Part shown: positions 14,256-28,497 of the stretch, in pieces
Layout: the number at the start of each line of letters is the position of its first letter
How positions within the stretch are numbered: the stretch's first letter is position 1
Source: a virus
IMG/VR virus record: IMGVR_UViG_3300045988_092438
Reading direction: 5' to 3' (one strand)
DNA: 64,000 nucleotides
The notes under the pieces: model-generated
Databases searched by the model: none
What the model saw: only the letters and a program-made list of their open reading frames with translations
What the model was told of the DNA's origin: nothing
Translations under genes and position numbers: made by a program

Positions 14256-15911
14256 CTATTGTACAGTTCCTCCACCATTTTGTCCAGTAATTTCTGTACG
14301 AACTTGTTCAATAGGTGTCTGTCCATTAGTCATGCCACTGTTAATTTGAGGTGCTTGACCTTGCATTTGATTCTGATACCACATCTGCTGTAACATAGGA
14401 TTAAAGAGTTCTGGGTGTTCCTCTCTTTCCTTATCAATCTCTGCAAGTTTCTGGTTAATATCTTCTTTGCCGATTCTTTCCATAGCACCATGTCTACACT
14501 CAAGACCCAGTTTCATTTCTGATTCAAGTTTCTGTAACTCAAGAAGTTCGTCCTTCGGAAGAGTGTCTGGAAGAGTAACCTCATTGTACAGGAAGTCTTT
14601 CTTACTGATATTATCCGGCTTCTCAATCAGTCCTTCCAACAGTGCAATGTGAAGAATCATTTTATTCACTGTCTCAAGACTGGTCTTTGTACACTGTCTC
14701 TTTATCCTCGTTTTTTCAATCAGTGGCAGGTTCATATACTGTAAAGCAACACCACTTGTGTTACTGATAGCATTAGCACCACCTAAAACTGTCTCTGGAA
14801 CACCACCAATTTCACACATAGCTGTCTTTAAAGAATCCGTGTAATTAGAACTTGCTCCTAAATCTCCCTGTAACTCAAGGTTTGCTACTTTAGCATCTTT
14901 TGGAAGACCTCCCCACACTTTGTTAGCACCTTTCTCAAGATTACCAATCTTTGCTCCAAACACACAGGTAATAGGTGCTGAGTGATAGTCAATGATTTCA
15001 GAAATATCACTTCTCTTAGTGTTCAACTCCACATTCAGAGGAATAATATCTTCAAGGTCTCCCATACCATAAGTTCTTCCAGCAATCGGAAAGTTCTTAA
15101 TCTGGACAAAAGGAATGATACCATAAGGGTTATCCATTTTGTCAATCTCTTCTTTATCTTCATACACAATGATTTTATCTCTTGTCCACAACTCTTTGTA
15201 AATCACAGTGGTAAGACTTGACCTTCTAAAGAGAATACCAGTATTCACTCTCTTCTCAATCGGGTACATGATAAGAATGGAATCCAGTTTATCCTTGTCA
15301 TGTGGATTGAAAGTTGGGAAGACATACTGTGTAGGAAGTACTGTAAGTCTAATTTTTCCATCTGGATATTCCTCAAATGGGTCATCTAAATCTTCTGGTG
15401 ATTCAAAGGACACTTTCATCCATGCTTCACCTGTGATACTCTTAGTCTGACCGATTTCAACACATAGTTCGTCTCTCTTATTGGAGTTCCACACTGCATT
15501 TAAGAAGTCATTGACTGTTTTTTCAACAATCTTCTCCGGCTTATTCTCAAGTTCGTCTGGGTCAATAACACCATCATGGTTCTGGTCTCTAACAGTGGTA
15601 TCAATCTTAGTATCTCCCACTGTAACACCCTTACCATCAAGTGCCATAGGTGTCTTGATAGAAAATCCCTTACCAAACTCAAAAGACACAAACTTATTAA
15701 CAAAAGGTCTACAGTAGTTAAAAGTTACTTGTGGGCTATCAAGGTCATCAATGCCCTCCCAGTGATAACCCTCATAGAAGTTCCATGCTTCTTTAATCTT
15801 TTCAAGTCTCAACACTTCAAGGTTTGTAAGGTCTCCTTCACTAACAAGACCACCAATGTTAAGACTCTCTTCTAATCCTGCATTATATCTGTGTTTAAAA
15901 GTGTTCATCAT
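14256..15911 (-). CDS. portal protein
   Basis: 551 aa immediately downstream of the large terminase (adjacent stop and start). Confidence 0.75.
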   Translation of the reverse strand: MMNTFKHRYNAGLEESLNIGGLVSEGDLTNLEVLRLEKIKEAWNFYEGYHWEGIDDLDSPQVTFNYCRPFVNKFVSFEFGKGFSIKTPMALDGKGVTVGDTKIDTTVRDQNHDGVIDPDELENKPEKIVEKTVNDFLNAVWNSNKRDELCVEIGQTKSITGEAWMKVSFESPEDLDDPFEEYPDGKIRLTVLPTQYVFPTFNPHDKDKLDSILIMYPIEKRVNTGILFRRSSLTTVIYKELWTRDKIIVYEDKEEIDKMDNPYGIIPFVQIKNFPIAGRTYGMGDLEDIIPLNVELNTKRSDISEIIDYHSAPITCVFGAKIGNLEKGANKVWGGLPKDAKVANLELQGDLGASSNYTDSLKTAMCEIGGVPETVLGGANAISNTSGVALQYMNLPLIEKTRIKRQCTKTSLETVNKMILHIALLEGLIEKPDNISKKDFLYNEVTLPDTLPKDELLELQKLESEMKLGLECRHGAMERIGKEDINQKLAEIDKEREEHPELFNPMLQQMWYQNQMQGQAPQINSGMTNGQTPIEQVRTEITGQNGGGTVQ

Positions 15912-25432: not shown

Positions 25433-27115
25433 TTATTTTCGTGTTGGTAAAGTTTCCACAATAGAGTCAATAACCTTTCTCACATCACTTGCACCTGTAC
25501 CAATAGAACTATACACATTGATAACATCAATCACTCTTTCAGAAAAACCAGTGATAAGGTTCTTTCTGTAGTCATCAATATTAGCAATAGCAAAGTTATT
25601 ACCTAAAAGGTTATCAATGTAAAGTTTCTTAATGACCTTGTTTTTAAAGAGTTTATTCAACTCAGCGTCAGTATCATAACTTCTACCACCCCAACTATAA
25701 CCCCTTCTTAAAACAAAGGTCTTTCCACTTAAACTGTAGCAATCATTATCAGAAAGTACAATCAGATTATCATACTTAGTGTCCTGCTGATTAAGAGTGT
25801 AAAGTGCTACATCAAGAGAAGTTCCACCTCCAACATTATGTCTCTGAATCTCTTTCATAATGTCCATGACTGTAGACTTTCTGGAAATGTTAGTTACCTG
25901 TTCACACTTAGTAGCAAATACATACACATCTGCAATACCTTTCTTAAAGCAGATAGCACCTAACATACAAGCTACAATGTCAGCGGTCACATCAGAAGCA
26001 CCAGAAACAGGATGTCTCATACTTCCACTTCTATCAATAAGGATAGCACTGTAACCCTCAATGTCCTGTAAGTTATCAATAGACAGGTCAAGTGCTTCTA
26101 TTAAAGCGTCCATGACTCTTCTCTTTCCGGCAGAATTACTCAGATTGGAAACTTCCATATATGCACTGTAGAATCTGAATGGTAACAGTCTGGACTTCTC
26201 AACCTCTTTCTTATTGGTGAGTTTAGCCACAATACTATCAACTGCTTCTTTATCACTAAACATACCTGCTCTGTCAAGGGCTACAAGGTTTTTCACAATA
26301 GCCATTACAGAAGAGGTGTCAATAGACTTCTTAACATCAGCCTTAGTAGACTTGCTGTTGCTGTTCTTAGATTTAGAAAGCTCACTCTGCACCTGCTTCA
26401 CTTCTTCACTGCCACCAAACTCTACATTACCCTCGATAATCTGCTTAAAGAAGTCTCTGCTGACTCTGGACTTAGCCGGATTAGGTCTCAACAGCTTTAC
26501 ACAATCTGCCATAGACACTTCTCTGTTTTCTCCAAGTGCTTTAGATAACTGATACTCATTAAAGGACTCCAACTTGTGCTGTAAAGCCTTTCTCAACTGC
26601 ATTGGAAGTGGCTGATTTCTGTGACTGGATTTATTCTTACCACGACCTTTTGTAGTCACTTCAAAACCAAACACATTCATCTGCATTGCCATAATGTCAG
26701 TAATGTCTTTACCTCTTCTCACAATATAGTCACTGTAAGTCTGTAACTTATTCTTACCAGTCACTTCATCAAGAAAGTCCTCACCCTTAAATCTTGGGTC
26801 ATTAAAACAAGCTGTGAGTACTGCCAGAGGGTACTGAATCATATTGTATTCTCTACCAATTCTGGCTACCTTGAGTGCATACTCAACGTCCTCGTCTGGG
26901 ATTTCTGCAATCAATCTCTGGATTTCTTTAAAATCACTCTCAGCAGTCTTGCCCTTCTCATAGAAAGTCTTCTCACCAAAGAAGCTACCTAACACTTTAC
27001 TAAACAGTGTTTCAAGAGTGTTCAGCTTATGTACCACACTTCCCTCGTGGTTCACTGTCTTTCTAGTGTCTGGTTTCATGTTTACACTACCACGTTTGTT
27101 GTTCATTGTTGCCAT
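25433..27115 (-). CDS. rsr: Ro60 ortholog (TROVE domain + vWA/MIDAS domain), Rsr-like
   Basis: By eye, regions align with human Ro60. ..LLPFRFYSAY.. corresponds to the IHPFHILIA region. ..ILIDRSGSM.. corresponds to the MIDAS DxSxS motif. ..GGGTSLDVAL.., ..LIVLSDNDCY.. and ..NNFAIANIDDYRKNLITGFSERVIDVI.. correspond to [27 protein letters not shown]. Start moved to MATMNNK (ATG 27115, GGAGG 8 nt upstream). Confidence 0.85.
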   Translation of the reverse strand: MATMNNKRGSVNMKPDTRKTVNHEGSVVHKLNTLETLFSKVLGSFFGEKTFYEKGKTAESDFKEIQRLIAEIPDEDVEYALKVARIGREYNMIQYPLAVLTACFNDPRFKGEDFLDEVTGKNKLQTYSDYIVRRGKDITDIMAMQMNVFGFEVTTKGRGKNKSSHRNQPLPMQLRKALQHKLESFNEYQLSKALGENREVSMADCVKLLRPNPAKSRVSRDFFKQIIEGNVEFGGSEEVKQVQSELSKSKNSNSKSTKADVKKSIDTSSVMAIVKNLVALDRAGMFSDKEAVDSIVAKLTNKKEVEKSRLLPFRFYSAYMEVSNLSNSAGKRRVMDALIEALDLSIDNLQDIEGYSAILIDRSGSMRHPVSGASDVTADIVACMLGAICFKKGIADVYVFATKCEQVTNISRKSTVMDIMKEIQRHNVGGGTSLDVALYTLNQQDTKYDNLIVLSDNDCYSLSGKTFVLRRGYSWGGRSYDTDAELNKLFKNKVIKKLYIDNLLGNNFAIANIDDYRKNLITGFSERVIDVINVYSSIGTGASDVRKVIDSIVETLPTRK

Positions 27116-27151
27116 AATAAATTCCTCCATTCTTTCATGTGTTTATATAAT

Positions 27152-27183
27152 AAAAGACCTCACAATCGGGGAATTGTGAAGTC
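27152..27183 (-). terminator. rho-independent terminator closing the RNA-gene array
   Basis: 11-bp stem GACTTCACAAT/ATTGTGAGGTC (one G.U), loop TCCCCG, then TTTTATT on the minus strand. Confidence 0.7.
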
Positions 27184-27202
27184 CTTTAATCTTAACTCAA
27201 AA

Positions 27203-27351
27203 TAGCAAGAAGAAAACCATTATTGTGTGAAATCTTTGTGCTTCATTAGCAGTGAAGTGCCTTACCATTAGGCTATCTGTCAAATTTTTGGCTGACGGAG
27301 TAGGAGTCGAACCTACAAAATGATGTAAACAATAACTACACAATCCTGCTA
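27203..27351 (-). ncRNA. module M1: long covarying stem plus circularly permuted tRNA-Ser(GCU)-like head
   Basis: Minus strand reads TAGCAGGA-TTGTGTAG-TTATTGT-TTAC-ATC(A)TTT-T. The head follows: T arm GTAGG TTCGACT CCTAC, acceptor hairpin TCCGTCA [GCCAAAAATT] TGACAGA, TA, D arm GCC TAATGGTAA GGC, A, anticodon arm CTTCA CTGCTAA TGAAG. It closes with CAC-AAAGAT-TTCAC-ACAATAA-TGGTTTTCT-TCTTGCTA. Confidence 0.7.
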
Positions 27352-27369
27352 CAATTATTTCTTCGTTAA

Positions 27370-27519
27370 AATTAGGAGTAAAGCCATTTAGCTGAATTTC
27401 ATATAATGAAAGTTTTCAAGACTTTTGCGTATTCCAATTTCGCCAAATTGCTTTTACAGAGCAATTATCGGATTTGAACCGATATATTATGATGTAAGCT
27501 AAATGTACACAACCCAATT
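27370..27519 (-). ncRNA. module M2: long covarying stem plus circularly permuted tRNA-Ser(UGA)-like head
   Basis: Minus strand reads AATTGGG-TTGTGTA-CATTTAGCT-TACA-TCATA-ATAT. The head follows: T arm ATCGG TTCAAAT CCGAT, acceptor hairpin AATTGCT [CTGTAAA] AGCAATT, TG, D arm GCG AAATTGGAATA CGC, A, anticodon arm AAAGT CTTGAAA ACTTT. It closes with CATTA-TATGA-AATTC-AGCTAAATG-GCTTTACT-CCTAATT. Confidence 0.7.
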
Positions 27520-27533
27520 ATTATTCTCTCATA

Positions 27534-27659
27534 AAGTGGAGTAAAACGATAAAGTCTGTTTGTTTATCATAATGGGATTTGAACCCATATTCGTTCTGTG
27601 TTAGAAAACTGTCTTAACCATTTGACTATATGATGTAAACTTTATCTGCACAACCACTT
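27534..27659 (-). ncRNA. module M3: the same long stem enclosing a standard-order tRNA
   Basis: AAGTGG-TTGTGCA-GATAAAGT-TTA-[tRNA 27635-27564]-ACAAACAG-ACTTTATC-GTTTTACT-CCACTT. Both helices are perfectly complementary. Confidence 0.65.
27564..27635 (-). tRNA. tRNA with anticodon AAC (Val-type, unusual A34)
   Basis: CATCATA TA GTCA AATGGTTA AGAC A GTTTT CTAACAC AGAAC GAAT ATGGG TTCAAAT CCCAT TATGATA A. Cloverleaf folds but has a C1.A72 mismatch and a 4-nt variable loop. No CCA is encoded. Confidence 0.6.
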
Positions 27660-27675
27660 AATTTACTTTTCATCA

Positions 27676-27805
27676 ATAAGGAAGAAAAACGTGAAAGACT
27701 TCTTTTTCATATTGTTGGAATTGAACCAACTACACTTATTTCCCAAAAATAATGCTCTACCGATTGAGCTAAACATGATGTAATCTTTCACTACACATTC
27801 CTTAT
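27676..27805 (-). ncRNA. module M4: the same long stem enclosing tRNA-Pro
   Basis: ATAAGGAA-TGTGTA-GTGAAAGA-TTACA-[tRNA-Pro]-AAAGAAG-TCTTTCAC-GTTTTTC-TTCCTTAT. Both 8-bp helices are perfectly complementary. Confidence 0.65.
27706..27778 (-). tRNA. tRNA-Pro(UGG)
   Basis: TCATGTT TA GCTC AATCGGTA GAGC A TTATT TTTGGGA AATAA GTGTA GTTGG TTCAATT CCAAC AATATGA A. Canonical cloverleaf with G37. Confidence 0.85.
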
Positions 27806-27817
27806 TGTTTTAACACT

Positions 27818-27857
27818 GCTTTCAGCGTGTTTACACTATAACACACATTCTGAAAGC
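27818..27857 (-). ncRNA. hairpin resembling a headless copy of the module 5' arm
   Basis: GCTTTCAG-AATGTGTGTTATAGTGTAAACACG-CTGAAAGC. The loop carries AATGTGTG...TAAACA, similar to the conserved GGAATGTGTAG...TTACA of the modules. Confidence 0.35.
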
Positions 27858-27864
27858 TGTCAAA

Positions 27865-27937
27865 CTGCCCTTACTGGATTTGAACCAGTGAAATGCAGGA
27901 GTCAAAGTCCTGTGCCTTACCACTTGGCGAAAGGGCA
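27865..27937 (-). tRNA. tRNA-Gln(UUG)
   Basis: TGCCCTT TC GCC AAGTGGTAA GGC A CAGGA CTTTGAC TCCTG CATTTC ACTGG TTCAAAT CCAGT AAGGGCA G. Close to the E. coli tRNA-Gln layout. Confidence 0.85.
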
Positions 27938-28030: not shown

Positions 28031-28097
28031 ACCTACTTTGGCTTATCTCTAACACATGAAAGTGAGAGTGTTTCTCCGGCACATTACCTCCGAAGAG

Positions 28098-28170
28098 TCG
28101 GAATGACACGACTTGAACGTGCGACAAATAGATTAAAAGTCTACTGCTCTACCAACTGAGCTACATTCCG
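28098..28170 (-). tRNA. tRNA-Lys(UUU)
   Basis: CGGAATG TA GCTC AGTTGGTA GAGC A GTAGA CTTTTAA TCTAT TTGTC GCACG TTCAAGT CGTGT CATTCCG A. Canonical cloverleaf. Confidence 0.9.
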
Positions 28171-28402
28171 TTAAGTCACTGTGGTAGGAGAGTCCGTCTA
28201 TTATACTCTCTGTTCACACTTCATTGGATAGACTAAAGTGATTTCGGCTACTACCTCCTTGTCTGCTACTCATACATATCCGTCTTGTCTATCAAGACCT
28301 TTCGCTTTGGCAATCAACAAGTTTGTGACTATCAGCATTTTTATGTAAGTCCTCCACTCCTGGAATACCTTACTTAGTCGGCTGACAAGACTAAACTGAC
28401 TC

Positions 28403-28497
28403 AGAGGACTCGAACCTGTGCTACGCATATAGCGTACTAAAAGATTAGCAATCTCTCCTCTTCACCAACTTGAGTAACACTCCATTACAGACAGTGT
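28403..28497 (-). pseudogene. tRNA-Ser(GCU)-like element lacking a contiguous 3' acceptor strand (non-canonical or decayed)
   Basis: ACACTGT [CTGTAAT] GGAGTGT TA CTC AAGTTGGTGAA GAG G AGAGA TTGCTAA TCTTT, then variable arm TAGTACGCTATATGCGTAGC, then T arm ACAGG TTCGAGT CCTCT. What follows is GAGTCAG, which is not complementary to GGAGTGT. Confidence 0.5.

What the first reader, a model, noticed from the sequence alone, without database searches (positions are those of the whole stretch)
27203..27519. Two circularly permuted class-II tRNA-Ser-like genes, with the break in the variable arm
In modules M2 and M1 the tRNA parts are present and canonical but arrive in permuted order.

M2 reads, in order:
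- T arm ATCGG-TTCAAAT-CCGAT.
- 3' acceptor strand AATTGCT, 7-nt loop CTGTAAA, 5' acceptor strand AGCAATT (7/7 bp).
- TG, then the Ser-type 3-bp D arm GCG-AAATTGGAATA-CGC.
- An intact anticodon arm AAAGT-CTTGAAA-ACTTT (UGA).

M1 does the same: GTAGG-TTCGACT-CCTAC, TCCGTCA [GCCAAAAATT] TGACAGA (6/7 bp), GCC-TAATGGTAA-GGC, CTTCA-CTGCTAA-TGAAG (GCU).

Neither 5' acceptor strand matches the 3' acceptor strand of the next T arm downstream. A conventional reading therefore fails, while the permuted reading fits both units. The RNA ends fall where the long variable arm of tRNA-Ser belongs. The flanks pair there (TCATA/TATGA plus the two covarying helices), so the extra arm is built from the 5' and 3' termini.

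The M1 acceptor loop begins G-CCA, that is, discriminator G73 plus CCA. Cleavage in that loop could in principle release a two-piece, aminoacylatable tRNA-Ser.

Known YrlA RNAs also have a closed acceptor stem, but their stem exits at the anticodon arm. Permuted tRNA genes are known to me only from some algae and one archaeon. I know of no phage or bacterial example.
Basis: seen in the sequence. Interest (0 to 1): 0.9.

Follow-up and report, generated by a model that had tools for sequence, protein, structure and literature searches.

The report
Permuted tRNA mimics beside phage Ro60
Two RNAs in a gut phage contain every part of a tRNA in rearranged order. They sit on a conserved stem next to the phage's Ro60 (Rsr) gene, so they are most likely a new variant of tRNA-mimicking "Y RNAs" rather than working tRNA-Ser genes.

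Summary
On the minus strand, M2 (27370-27519) and M1 (27202-27352) each read T arm, closed 7-bp acceptor hairpin, U8-N9, D arm, A26, intact 5-bp/7-nt anticodon arm. The RNA leaves the fold where a variable arm would be. In 18 distinct homologues from about 20 independent contigs, 94.7% of helix cells pair, against 34-46% in shifted controls.

The ORF 65 nt downstream (25433-27130) is a Ro60/Rsr protein (TROVE plus Ro60-vWA). This synteny holds in all 23 related loci. M1 and M2 share a covarying two-helix stem with a conserved internal loop. The same stem also carries two ordinary tRNAs, and in relatives a YrlA-type head and a 31-nt head. That is Y-RNA architecture.

M1 is not Ser-specific. Its anticodon is GCU, UUU, GUU, UGU, ACG or UGA among near-identical phages.

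These RNAs differ from canonical YrlA in four ways:
- The anticodon arm is closed.
- The exit is at the variable arm.
- There is no GNCGAA motif.
- The Rfam score is 28.7 bits, against a threshold of 69.

Verdict: a new topological variant of phage Y-RNA-like tRNA mimics. Processing into a two-piece chargeable tRNA is not excluded, and M. smegmatis YrlA is a precedent, but it is unproven.

The parts
27370..27519 (-). Module M2: complete Y-RNA-like unit (basal stem plus permuted tRNA-like head, anticodon UGA)
   Evidence: Coordinates. MFE fold z = -3.2. Covariation.
27467..27483 (-). M2 T arm ATCGG-TTCAAAT-CCGAT
   Evidence: The T stem is 100% paired across homologues.
27446..27466 (-). M2 closed acceptor hairpin AATTGCT-CTGTAAA-AGCAATT (7 bp)
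   Evidence: The stem covaries: GCT/AGC becomes TCC/GGA, CTC/GAG or CGGC/GCCG. The loop is 4-8 nt and variable.
27427..27443 (-). M2 D arm (3 bp plus an A.A mismatch, loop with GG), preceded by U8 G9 at 27444-27445
27409..27425 (-). M2 anticodon arm AAAGT-CUUGAAA-ACTTT
   Evidence: Compensatory variants GAAGT/ACTTC, AGTGT/ACACT and GAGGT/ACCTT. The loop is UGA in all relatives but L148 (UAA).
27498..27519 (-). M2 basal stem, 5' strand: outer helix AATTGGG, conserved loop TTGTGTA, inner helix CATTTAGC
27370..27392 (-). M2 basal stem, 3' strand: inner helix GCTAAATG, conserved loop GCTTTACT, outer helix CCTAATT
27202..27352 (-). Module M1: complete Y-RNA-like unit (basal stem plus permuted tRNA-like head, anticodon GCU in this genome)
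   Evidence: The MFE fold equals the proposed fold, z = -1.8. Rfam YrlA scores 28.7 bits, E = 0.0012, below the gathering score. Covariation.
27300..27316 (-). M1 T arm GTAGG-TTCGACT-CCTAC
   Evidence: Variants GTGGG/CCCAC, GAAGG/CCTTC and GTTGG/CCAAC.
27276..27299 (-). M1 closed acceptor hairpin TCCGTCA-GCCAAAAATT-TGACAGA (loop starts G-CCA)
   Evidence: Stem variants TTTGTCA/TGACAAA and TCCGTCC/GGACAGA. The loop starts NCCA in most relatives, but is GCGTT, GCATT or GCCG in some.
27259..27273 (-). M1 D arm GCCT-AATGGTA-AGGC (4 bp), preceded by U8 A9 at 27274-27275
27241..27257 (-). M1 anticodon arm CTTCA-CUGCUAA-TGAAG
   Evidence: Loop form is CU-NNN-RA, with NNN = GCU, UUU, GUU, UGU, ACG or UGA. 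Stem replaced by ACAGT/ACTGT or AGAGT/ATTCT in divergent relatives. Anticodon positions 34 and 35 are substitution hot spots.
27329..27352 (-). M1 basal stem, 5' strand: outer helix GTAGCAGGA, loop TTGTGTA, inner helix GTTATTGT
27202..27226 (-). M1 basal stem, 3' strand: inner helix ACAATAAT, loop GGTTTTCT, outer helix TCTTGCTAT
27532..27661 (-). Module X: the same basal stem carrying a normal-topology tRNA (Val AAC here)
   Evidence: ARAGORN and Rfam call a tRNA at 27564-27635. Stem. The anticodon differs in relatives.
27674..27807 (-). Module P: the same basal stem carrying tRNA-Pro(UGG)
   Evidence: tRNA at 27706-27778. Fold. Stem covariation.
27835..27863 (-). Promoter-like site TTGACA-17-TATAGT just upstream of the four-module array
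   Evidence: 11 of 12 matches. Conserved in relatives.
27147..27187 (-). Intrinsic-terminator-like hairpin plus U tract between M1 and rsr
   Evidence: Read from the sequence. Compensatory change CACAA/TTGTG to CACAT/ATGTG in L003. Not picked up by the simple scan.
25433..27130 (-). rsr: Ro60/TROVE protein (565 aa), the presumed protein partner
   Evidence: Pfam TROVE 55.9 bits and vWA_Ro60 35.8 bits, both above cut-off. phrog_850 at 1.7e-31. tblastn hits annotated TROVE or Ro sixty-related.

Best explanation
M1 and M2 are phage-encoded Y-RNA-like non-coding RNAs of the YrlA kind, that is, tRNA mimics that partner with Ro60/Rsr.

A roughly 700-nt transcript appears to run from a sigma-70-like promoter (27863-27835) to a terminator (27187-27147), just upstream of the phage rsr gene. 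It carries four modules. Each module has a basal stem made of:
- an outer helix,
- a conserved internal loop (5' UUGUGYA, 3' GNUUUNCU),
- an inner helix,
- an invariant UUACAUCAU.

I infer that this stem is the Rsr-binding part.

On top of the stem sits a variable head. Two modules carry an ordinary tRNA (Pro, and Val here). M2 and M1 carry a full tRNA fold that is circularly permuted. Its acceptor stem is closed by a loop, its anticodon arm is intact, and the basal stem emerges where a class-II variable arm would be.

I infer that the head folds into the tRNA L-shape, because U8, A14/A15, G18G19, the TTCRA T loop and U48 are all kept. I infer that it serves as the effector end of the Ro60 RNP. 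It would present a real anticodon loop to tRNA-binding factors while being unable to accept an amino acid as transcribed.

The anticodon changes between nearly identical phages while the rest is frozen. The most likely role is therefore in the phage-host conflict over tRNAs. The RNA could be a competitive decoy or tether for anticodon-directed enzymes (anticodon nucleases, modification enzymes, synthetases). It might bring Rsr and a host exonuclease or repair activity to them.

What is shown: the structure, the covariation, the synteny with rsr, the modularity and the anticodon hypervariability. What is inferred: Rsr binding, co-transcription and processing, and the decoy or tether function.
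For: 1. Rsr identity. The ORF 65 nt downstream is Ro60/Rsr.
2. Synteny. M1 followed by a terminator and rsr is conserved in all 11 viral and 12 metagenome loci, with Rsr identity from 98% down to 63%.
3. Rfam. The only non-tRNA Rfam family matching M1 is YrlA (28.7 bits, E = 0.0012).
4. Gene order. The T arm, closed acceptor, U8N9, D arm order is the defining order of YrlA (PMC4201824; bioRxiv 312249).
5. Basal stem. It is shared by all modules and covaries strongly: 93% paired, 16 of 17 pairs with double changes. Its internal-loop sequences are invariant or nearly so.
6. Head diversity. The same stem carries normal tRNAs, permuted tRNAs, a YrlA-topology head and a 31-nt head with no tRNA parts (L154/L155). 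A constant protein-binding stem with a variable effector head is the Y RNA design.
7. Head structure. It is supported by covariation in all four arms and by ARAGORN after un-permutation.
8. Selection pattern. Within six genomes that differ at 51 of 716 array columns, all M1 and M2 substitutions lie outside the head-arm helices (one falls on the terminal outer-helix pair at 27202). Two of the four M1 substitution columns are anticodon positions 34 and 35.
9. Independent lineage. An unrelated gut phage (csAssE-Sib) has a YrlA-like RNA plus two stem-flanked tRNAs directly upstream of its Rsr.
10. Published hypothesis. The YrlA tRNA-like domain has already been proposed as a competitive inhibitor of an anticodon nuclease (PMC7790460).
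Against: - No RNA or protein-binding data exist for this phage.
- The Rfam YrlA score is far below the gathering score of 69.
- The motif thought to contact Ro60 in known bacterial Y RNAs (GNCGAAN0-1G) is absent from the 5' stem strand of all 38 modules examined.
- The same stem flanks two apparently normal tRNAs. It could therefore be a tRNA-processing signal rather than an Rsr site.
- M1 keeps a 7-bp acceptor stem, and most lineages have NCCA at the start of the acceptor loop. This is what a precursor of a chargeable RNA would look like.
- Part of the covariation signal comes from comparing the paralogues M1 and M2. The register of the acceptor and D loops was chosen to maximise pairing.
Confidence: 0.7

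Rival explanations
1. M1 and M2 are genuine permuted tRNA genes. RNase P cuts 5' of the 5' acceptor strand inside the acceptor loop. The loop remnant is trimmed to the encoded CCA in M1, or CCA is added in M2. The two pieces stay together through the long terminal stem, which acts as a giant variable arm. The nicked RNA is then aminoacylated and decodes.
For: - All tRNA arms, connectors and tertiary-interaction nucleotides are canonical.
- ARAGORN accepts the un-permuted sequences.
- Both modules have 7-bp acceptor stems, which is the main RNase P determinant.
- M. smegmatis YrlA has such a stem. It is cut by RNase P in vitro, and cleaved and CCA-tailed in vivo (PMC4201824).
- The M1 loop starts NCCA in 7 of 10 distinct loop variants, although the phage's ordinary tRNAs do not encode CCA.
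- Anticodon positions are the hot spots of change while U33, U36, A37 and A38 stay fixed, as expected if the anticodon is read.
- The neighbouring stem-borne modules are ordinary tRNAs.
Against: - CCA is lost (GCGTT, GCATT) in phages whose Rsr is 96-98% identical, and is GCCG in others.
- M2 loops are only 4-8 nt, with no CCA.
- With the same body and discriminator, M1 would have to switch among Ser, Lys, Asn and Thr identities.
- A terminal arm of about 25 bp with conserved internal loops is far beyond any natural variable arm.
- Bacteria have no BHB splicing or ligation route, so the product could only be two-piece.
- The tight linkage to rsr, the headless module and the YrlA-type module are not explained.
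Confidence: 0.15
2. The flanking stems are only processing or insulating signals (for example RNase III sites) of a phage tRNA operon. M1 and M2 are decaying rearranged tRNA pseudogenes left by recombination between tandem tRNA genes.
For: - The same stems bracket two normal tRNAs.
- tRNA arrays in this clade do recombine. The window itself carries an apparent Ser/Asn T-arm fusion with a deletion of roughly 500 nt.
- A tandem-duplication-plus-truncation origin for the permutation is plausible.
Against: - M1 and M2 are maintained, with compensatory changes in every helix, over lineages whose Rsr has diverged to 66%.
- In the close clade, substitutions spare all head-arm and inner helices; one falls on the terminal outer-helix pair at 27202.
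- Only the modules next to rsr have the stem. The upstream Ser, Asn, Lys and Gln genes lack it.
- A module with the stem but no tRNA exists.
- The internal-loop sequences are conserved, which a plain RNase III duplex does not need.
Confidence: 0.1
3. The permuted order is an assembly or sequencing rearrangement artefact.
For: None found.
Against: The same order is present in about 20 independent contigs from different samples and assemblers, with sequence divergence and compensatory changes.
Confidence: 0.01

Closest known systems
YrlA (Y RNA-like A; Rfam RF02553), the tRNA-mimicking Y RNAs of bacteria and phages
   Same: - Encoded on the same strand within a few hundred bases of a Ro60/Rsr gene.
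- The 5' and 3' ends form a long stem.
- The head has a T arm, then a closed acceptor-like hairpin, then U-R, then a D arm, with the tRNA tertiary-interaction nucleotides.
- Multiple Y RNAs per locus.
- Known in phages.
   Different: - Canonical YrlA has no anticodon loop. The Ro60-binding stem continues from the anticodon stem, and a separate V hairpin lies 5' of the T arm.
- In M1 and M2 the anticodon arm is a closed 5-bp/7-nt hairpin, and the stem exits at the variable-arm position.
- The GNCGAAN0-1G motif is absent. A different conserved internal loop (UUGUGYA / GNUUUNCU) and UUACAUCAU are present instead.
- The Rfam score is 28.7 bits against a gathering score of 69.
Mycobacterium smegmatis YrlA
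   Same: It has a seven-bp acceptor-like stem closed by a loop. RNase P cuts it in vitro, and in vivo it is cleaved and CCA-tailed into a two-piece RNA.
   Different: It still has the canonical YrlA topology, with no anticodon hairpin. CCA is added rather than encoded. Nothing is known about cleavage of M1 or M2.
Deinococcus radiodurans Yrn1
   Same: It is a Y RNA that can be drawn with an anticodon-like arm, with the Ro-binding stem leaving at the acceptor position. This resembles the tRNA-headed modules P and X of this array.
   Different: Yrn1 has a 6-nt anticodon loop, an incomplete D arm and no V arm. It is not permuted like M1 and M2.
Circularly permuted tRNA genes of Cyanidioschyzon merolae and other algae, and of an archaeon
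   Same: The 3' half (T arm plus 3' acceptor strand) lies upstream of the 5' half. A short intervening sequence joins the acceptor strands. All arms are canonical.
   Different: - Those genes are matured through a BHB motif, the splicing endonuclease/ligase and a circular intermediate, giving a contiguous tRNA.
- Here the termini form a stem of about 25 bp with 7/8-nt and 4/5-nt internal loops. There is no BHB motif, and bacteria lack that pathway.
- The break is in the variable arm.
- The partner gene is Ro60.
Two-piece tmRNA from permuted ssrA genes (alpha-proteobacteria, cyanobacteria); from my own knowledge
   Same: A bacterial precedent for a permuted gene whose acceptor strands are joined by a loop. 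The loop is excised to give a two-piece, chargeable tRNA-like domain.
   Different: tmRNA has no D or anticodon arm of tRNA type and carries a tag reading frame. ARAGORN finds no tmRNA here.

Membership tests
YrlA (RF02553) | Encoded within about 4 kb of a Ro60/TROVE gene, on the same strand | tested here: met
   M1 ends 72 nt, and M2 240 nt, upstream of rsr (25433-27130, minus strand). TROVE and vWA_Ro60 both score above the Pfam cut-offs. The synteny holds in 23 of 23 related loci.
YrlA (RF02553) | Order T arm, closed acceptor-like stem-loop, UA/UG, D arm, with tRNA tertiary-interaction nucleotides | tested here: met
   Parse of 20 and then 30+ homologues. Covariation. U8, A14/A15, GG, TTCRA and U48 are all present.
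YrlA (RF02553) | The Ro60-binding stem continues from the anticodon-stem position; no anticodon loop; V hairpin 5' of the T arm | tested here: not met
   M1 and M2 have a closed 5-bp/7-nt anticodon hairpin directly after A26, and the terminal stem leaves between it and the T arm. A relative's module (L155 2182-2300) can be read with a YrlA-type order: a hairpin 5' of the T arm, then T arm, closed acceptor and D arm; its MFE fold did not reproduce the D arm.
YrlA (RF02553) | GNCGAAN0-1G motif near the 5' end (presumed Ro60 contact) | tested here: not met
   A regex over 38 modules found none in the 5' stem strand.
YrlA (RF02553) | Score at or above the Rfam gathering threshold (69 bits) | tested here: not met
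   M1 scores 28.7 bits (E = 0.0012). M2 gave no YrlA match at E <= 10.
YrlA (RF02553) | Bound by Rsr in vivo | not testable with these tools
   Needs RIP or EMSA.
Y RNA in the broad sense | The 5' and 3' ends pair into a conserved stem with an internal loop or bulge; the distal part is variable; several paralogues lie next to Ro60 | tested here: met
   Two-helix stem with a conserved 7/8-nt internal loop in all modules. Heads range from 31 nt to a full tRNA.
Circularly permuted tRNA gene (C. merolae type) | 3' half upstream of the 5' half, with all cloverleaf arms recoverable on un-permutation | tested here: met
   ARAGORN calls the un-permuted M1 and M2 as tRNAs.
Circularly permuted tRNA gene (C. 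merolae type) | Bulge-helix-bulge motif formed by the termini, for the splicing endonuclease and circularisation | tested here: not met
   The termini form 7-9 bp and 8 bp helices separated by a 7/8-nt internal loop, then a 4/5-nt loop and a 3-5 bp helix. There is no 3-4-3 BHB (read directly).
Circularly permuted tRNA gene (C. merolae type) | The mature product is a functional, aminoacylated tRNA | not testable with these tools
   Needs end mapping and charging assays.
Class-II tRNA-Ser | Serine anticodon conserved among orthologues | tested here: not met
   M1 is GCU, UUU, GUU, UGU, ACG or UGA. M2 is UGA except for UAA in L148.
Class-II tRNA-Ser | 3-bp D stem with an enlarged D loop, and a long variable arm | tested here: inconclusive
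   M2 has 3 bp plus an A.A mismatch and a 9-nt loop, which is Ser-like. M1 has a regular 4-bp D stem with a 7-nt loop. The 'variable arm' is the open terminal stem, not a hairpin.
tmRNA (one- or two-piece) | tRNA-Ala-like acceptor/T domain plus a tag reading frame | tested here: not met
   ARAGORN finds no tmRNA in the window.

The most novel reading that the evidence does not exclude
M1, and perhaps M2, may be cut in the acceptor loop by RNase P and trimmed to the encoded CCA. The result would be a two-piece, chargeable tRNA whose variable arm is a Ro60-binding stem. That would be an Rsr-tethered tRNA whose anticodon is re-assigned from strain to strain (Ser, Lys, Asn, Thr, Arg). The phage would use it to replace or shield the particular host tRNA attacked by that host's anticodon nuclease.
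Probability: 0.15. Interest if true: 0.9.

Novelty: new variant of a known kind. Interest (0 to 1): 0.66.

Why it matters
What the tRNA-like domain of bacterial Y RNAs does, and how Y RNAs arose from tRNAs, are open questions. This phage clade bears on both.

On origin: one conserved Ro60-linked stem carries a graded series of heads. These are an ordinary tRNA, a fully permuted tRNA with a live-looking anticodon loop, a YrlA-type head, and almost no head. They look like surviving intermediates of the proposed tRNA-to-Y-RNA route.

On function: the mimic keeps a canonical anticodon loop, and its anticodon flips between near-identical phages. The published idea that YrlA competes with tRNAs for anticodon-directed enzymes therefore becomes directly testable, with natural allelic series in hand.

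On annotation: the finding flags a class of tRNA-like genes that standard tRNA finders miss. It also shows that some "tRNA" annotations next to phage Ro60 genes may in fact be parts of Y RNAs.

Tried and rejected
- Conventional reading. Joining M2's 5' half to M1's T arm fails, because AGCAATT does not pair with TCCGTCA. Nothing tRNA-like follows M1.
- Assembly artefact. Rejected by recurrence in independent contigs.
- Loose DNA pattern. TTGTGYAN{5,14}TTACATCAT returned only single chance matches (L006-L125). I replaced it with a tighter pattern. Its hits L127, L131, L136, L138, L139, L141, L142 and L144 were also chance or coding matches.
- Plain MAFFT alignments. A2 and A3 misplace the acceptor loops and the divergent anticodon arms. 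I therefore used position-parsed, equal-length alignments. Caveat: the acceptor-loop and D-loop lengths, and the position of the inner 3' strand, were chosen to maximise pairing. The outer helix was taken at a fixed offset and still pairs.
- One promoter per module. TTTACT-17-AATAAT sites lie at 27545-27517 and 27382-27354. I rejected this because transcripts starting there would lack the 5' strand of the outer helix, which covaries.
- GNCGAA / CGAA Ro60 motif. Not present in the stems. An AACGAAG between M2 and M1 is not conserved in relatives.
- TCATA/TATGA as a conserved exit helix. It holds only in the window's close clade. Elsewhere there is a 3-bp ATC/GAT.
- Close phage relatives. None were found in the annotated phage collection at the DNA level. 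The closest portal is Bacillus phage BCD7, at 50% identity.
- Reviews not held. Two reviews on bacterial Y RNAs (PMC10870794, PMC6047535) are not in the library.
- Thermodynamic z-scores. They are modest (-1.8 and -3.2) and were not used as main evidence.
Full report
**What is in the sequence**

All genes of the window lie on the minus strand, and the content is that of a tailed phage: portal, ligase, endolysin. ARAGORN and Rfam call four tRNAs on the minus strand:
- Lys, 28097-28170
- Gln, 27865-27937
- Pro, 27706-27778
- Val(AAC), 27564-27635

The finding lies just 3' of these.
- T arm
- 3' acceptor strand
- short loop
- 5' acceptor strand
- U8-N9
- D arm
- A26
- a closed 5-bp/7-nt anticodon hairpin

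One correction applies. The M1 D stem is a regular 4 bp (GCCU/AGGC), not 3 bp. A conventional reading is impossible, because M2's 5' acceptor strand does not pair with M1's 3' acceptor strand and nothing tRNA-like follows M1. When I un-permuted the two sequences in silico, ARAGORN called both as tRNAs. RNAfold returns the proposed five-way junction as the MFE for M1 (z = -1.8) and most of it for M2 (z = -3.2).

**Is it more than chance?**

I collected relatives in three ways:
- through the downstream protein,
- through a DNA pattern,
- through a metagenome scan (which includes contigs labelled human gut).

This gave about 20 independent contigs. A position-based parse of every homologue shows all four arms maintained through compensatory changes. 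Examples:
- M2 acceptor: AATTGCT/AGCAATT becomes AATTTCC/GGAAATT, AATTCTC/GAGAATT or ATTCGGC/GCCGATT.
- M2 anticodon stem: AAAGT/ACTTT becomes GAAGT/ACTTC or AGTGT/ACACT.
- M1 anticodon stem: CTTCA/TGAAG becomes ACAGT/ACTGT.

On 18 distinct sequences, 94.7% of cells pair, against 34-46% when the 3' partners are slid. 15 of 21 pairs change on both sides. The anticodon stem is 100% paired with 5/5 compensatory pairs.

There are two caveats. Much of the variation is between the paralogues M1 and M2. Loop lengths were chosen to maximise pairing. Recurrence in independent assemblies excludes an artefact.

The ORF that starts 72 nt after M1 (25433-27130) is a Ro60/Rsr protein. The evidence is:
- Pfam TROVE at 55.9 bits and Ro60-vWA at 35.8 bits, both above cut-off.
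- PHROG RNA-binding protein at 1.7e-31.
- tblastn hits annotated TROVE or Ro sixty-related.

Rsr follows M1 in all 23 related loci, with Rsr identity from 98% down to 63%. In a permissive Rfam scan, the only non-tRNA family matching M1 is YrlA, the tRNA-mimicking Y RNA (28.7 bits, E = 0.0012, far below the gathering score of 69).

According to Chen et al. 2014 (PMC4201824) and Wang et al. 2018 (bioRxiv 312249), YrlA RNAs:
- are encoded within 4 kb of Ro60 on the same strand,
- were found in 254 bacterial species and 22 phages,
- have exactly the order T arm, closed acceptor-like stem-loop, UA, D arm.

They lack an anticodon loop, because the Ro60-binding stem continues from the anticodon stem. 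They also carry a V hairpin 5' of the T arm.

**A modular array**

M1, M2 and the two preceding tRNAs (module P = Pro, module X = Val) all sit on the same kind of basal stem:
- an outer helix of 7-9 bp,
- an internal loop with conserved strands (5' UUGUGYA, 3' GNUUUNCU),
- an 8-bp inner helix,
- the invariant UUACAUCAU, and then the head.

The helices differ between module classes and between phages but stay complementary. They are 93% paired against 41-55% in slid controls, and 16 of 17 pairs change on both sides. The outer helix was taken at a fixed offset.

A strong promoter-like site (TTGACA-17-TATAGT, 27863-27835) precedes module P. A conserved terminator hairpin (27147-27187) follows M1. 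The four modules are therefore probably one transcript; this is an inference.

The upstream tRNAs (Ser, Asn, Lys, Gln) lack the stem. In the most divergent relatives (L154/L155, Rsr 63%), the same stem carries two further kinds of head:
- A head that can be read as a hairpin followed by a T arm, a closed acceptor and a D arm, which is a YrlA-type order (Rfam YrlA 27.4 bits; the MFE fold did not reproduce the D arm).
- A head of only 31 nt with no tRNA parts.

A constant stem next to Ro60 with interchangeable heads is the Y RNA design. An unrelated gut phage, csAssE-Sib, has a YrlA-like RNA plus two annotated tRNAs inside long-range stems directly upstream of its Ro sixty-related protein. The arrangement may therefore be more general.

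**What does not fit a tRNA-Ser reading**

M1's anticodon is GCU only in the window and its closest relatives. Elsewhere it is UUU, GUU, UGU, ACG or UGA. M2 is UGA except for one UAA (L148).

The G-CCA at the start of the M1 acceptor loop is frequent (GCCA, CCCA, ACCA). It is replaced by GCGTT or GCATT in phages with 96-98% identical Rsr, and by GCCG in others. M2 loops are 4-8 nt without CCA.

**What is unusual**

Among six genomes that differ at only 51 of 716 array columns, all substitutions in M1 and M2 lie outside the head-arm and inner helices; one falls on the terminal outer-helix pair at 27202. Two of the four substitution columns in M1 are anticodon positions 34 and 35, with three alleles. 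C32, U33, U36, A37 and A38 never change. By my rough binomial estimate, two of four hits on three of about 145 positions has p of about 0.003.

The tRNA-headed module X changes likewise: Val AAC, Cys GCA, Gly UCC, UCA, Tyr GUA, Lys UUU, Asn GUU, Asp GUC. The anticodon therefore seems to matter and to be under diversifying pressure.

**Mechanism**

I commit to the following reading. M1 and M2 are Rsr-partner Y-RNA-like RNAs. Their basal stem binds Rsr. Their head is a complete but uncharged tRNA mimic that presents an anticodon loop.

The likely role is as a decoy or tether for anticodon-directed factors in phage-host conflict over tRNAs. Hughes et al. 2020 already suggested that the YrlA tRNA-like domain could competitively inhibit an anticodon nuclease (PMC7790460). 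Thermus phage Ro60 with its Y-like RNAs recruits host PNPase (PMC12135203).

What is shown: structure, covariation, synteny, modularity and anticodon variability. What is inferred: Rsr binding, processing and function.

Three points count against membership in YrlA proper:
- the topology differs (closed anticodon arm, exit at the variable arm),
- the GNCGAAN0-1G motif is absent,
- the Rfam score is sub-threshold.

Cleavage in the acceptor loop to give a two-piece chargeable tRNA cannot be excluded. Both modules have 7-bp acceptor stems. M. smegmatis YrlA, the one YrlA with such a stem, is cut by RNase P and CCA-tailed in vivo. I give this reading about 0.15.

A pure processing-signal or pseudogene reading gets about 0.1, because of the purifying selection and the headless module.

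**Novelty**

Phage Y RNAs and tRNA-mimicking YrlA RNAs are known. I found no paper in the held library describing a Y-like RNA with any of the following:
- a complete anticodon arm,
- exit at the variable arm,
- strain-variable anticodons,
- a shared stem that also carries bona fide tRNAs.

I therefore class it as a new variant of a known kind, of good interest to the Ro60/Y RNA and phage-tRNA fields.

Noticed in passing
window 28395-28490 (-); compare L002 809-1425: The tRNA-Ser(GCU)-like sequence that ARAGORN does not call looks like a fusion. The 5' three-quarters of tRNA-Ser joins, within the T arm, to the 3' end of the next tRNA (Asn in relatives). About 500 nt present in relatives are missing, including a roughly 450-nt non-coding stretch of unknown function.
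   Followed up: partly
window 27564-27635 (-) and homologues (L001 2932-3004, L003 2854-2926, L146 1997-2069, L152 987-1059): The stem-borne tRNA of module X keeps its body but changes anticodon between phages with nearly identical Rsr. The variants are Val AAC (an unusual A34), Cys GCA, Gly UCC, Tyr GUA and UCA. ARAGORN labels UCA as SeC; it would read UGA. The variants also include Lys, Asn and Asp in more distant relatives.
   Followed up: partly
L157 (phage csAssE-Sib, OR575929.1) 1950-2372: An unrelated human-gut phage has a YrlA-like RNA of canonical topology. It also has two genes annotated tRNA-Tyr and tRNA-Lys, each enclosed by long-range flanking helices. These share 5' GGTGAKGG and 3' GCTTTTCC motifs and lie directly upstream of its Ro sixty-related protein.
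   Followed up: partly
L155 2182-2300 and 2327-2400 (same in L154): In the most divergent relatives the conserved stem carries two other heads. One is a YrlA-topology head whose 5' hairpin has an anticodon-like loop, CUGUUAA. The other is a module with only a 31-nt head (YrlB-like). ARAGORN mislabels the first as a 67-nt tRNA-Asn.
   Followed up: partly
window 28171-28300 (-); L133 8890-9010 (-): A conserved non-coding stretch lies upstream of tRNA-Lys...AAGGAGGTAGTAGCCGAAATCAC...GAGTATAATAGACGGACTCTCCTACCACAGTGA.... It contains a GCCGAAA sequence and gives a weak YrlA hit (18.4 bits, E = 1.2, at 28115-28220). It could be a promoter region or another small RNA.
   Followed up: no
window 27484-27492, 27320-27328, 27775-27783, 27630-27638 (-): UUACAUCAU is invariant in every module of every relative, yet it is used in different pairing registers. 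It forms the acceptor 5' strand in P and X, a short exit helix in M1 and M2, and a hairpin stem in L155. This suggests sequence-specific recognition rather than a structural role.
   Followed up: partly
window 27517-27545 and 27354-27382 (-): Weak promoter-like matches (TTTACT-17-AATAAT) overlap the conserved 3' loop motif of one module and the AT-rich spacer before the next. They are probably coincidental, since transcripts from them would lack the covarying outer helix.
   Followed up: partly
window 14256-15911 (-): The closest portal in the annotated phage collection is Bacillus phage BCD7 (50% identity), followed by Streptomyces phages. One related metagenome contig is labelled human gut, and the lysin is a SleB-type cell-wall hydrolase. 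This points to a Bacillota-infecting gut siphovirus-like phage with no close cultured relative.
   Followed up: partly
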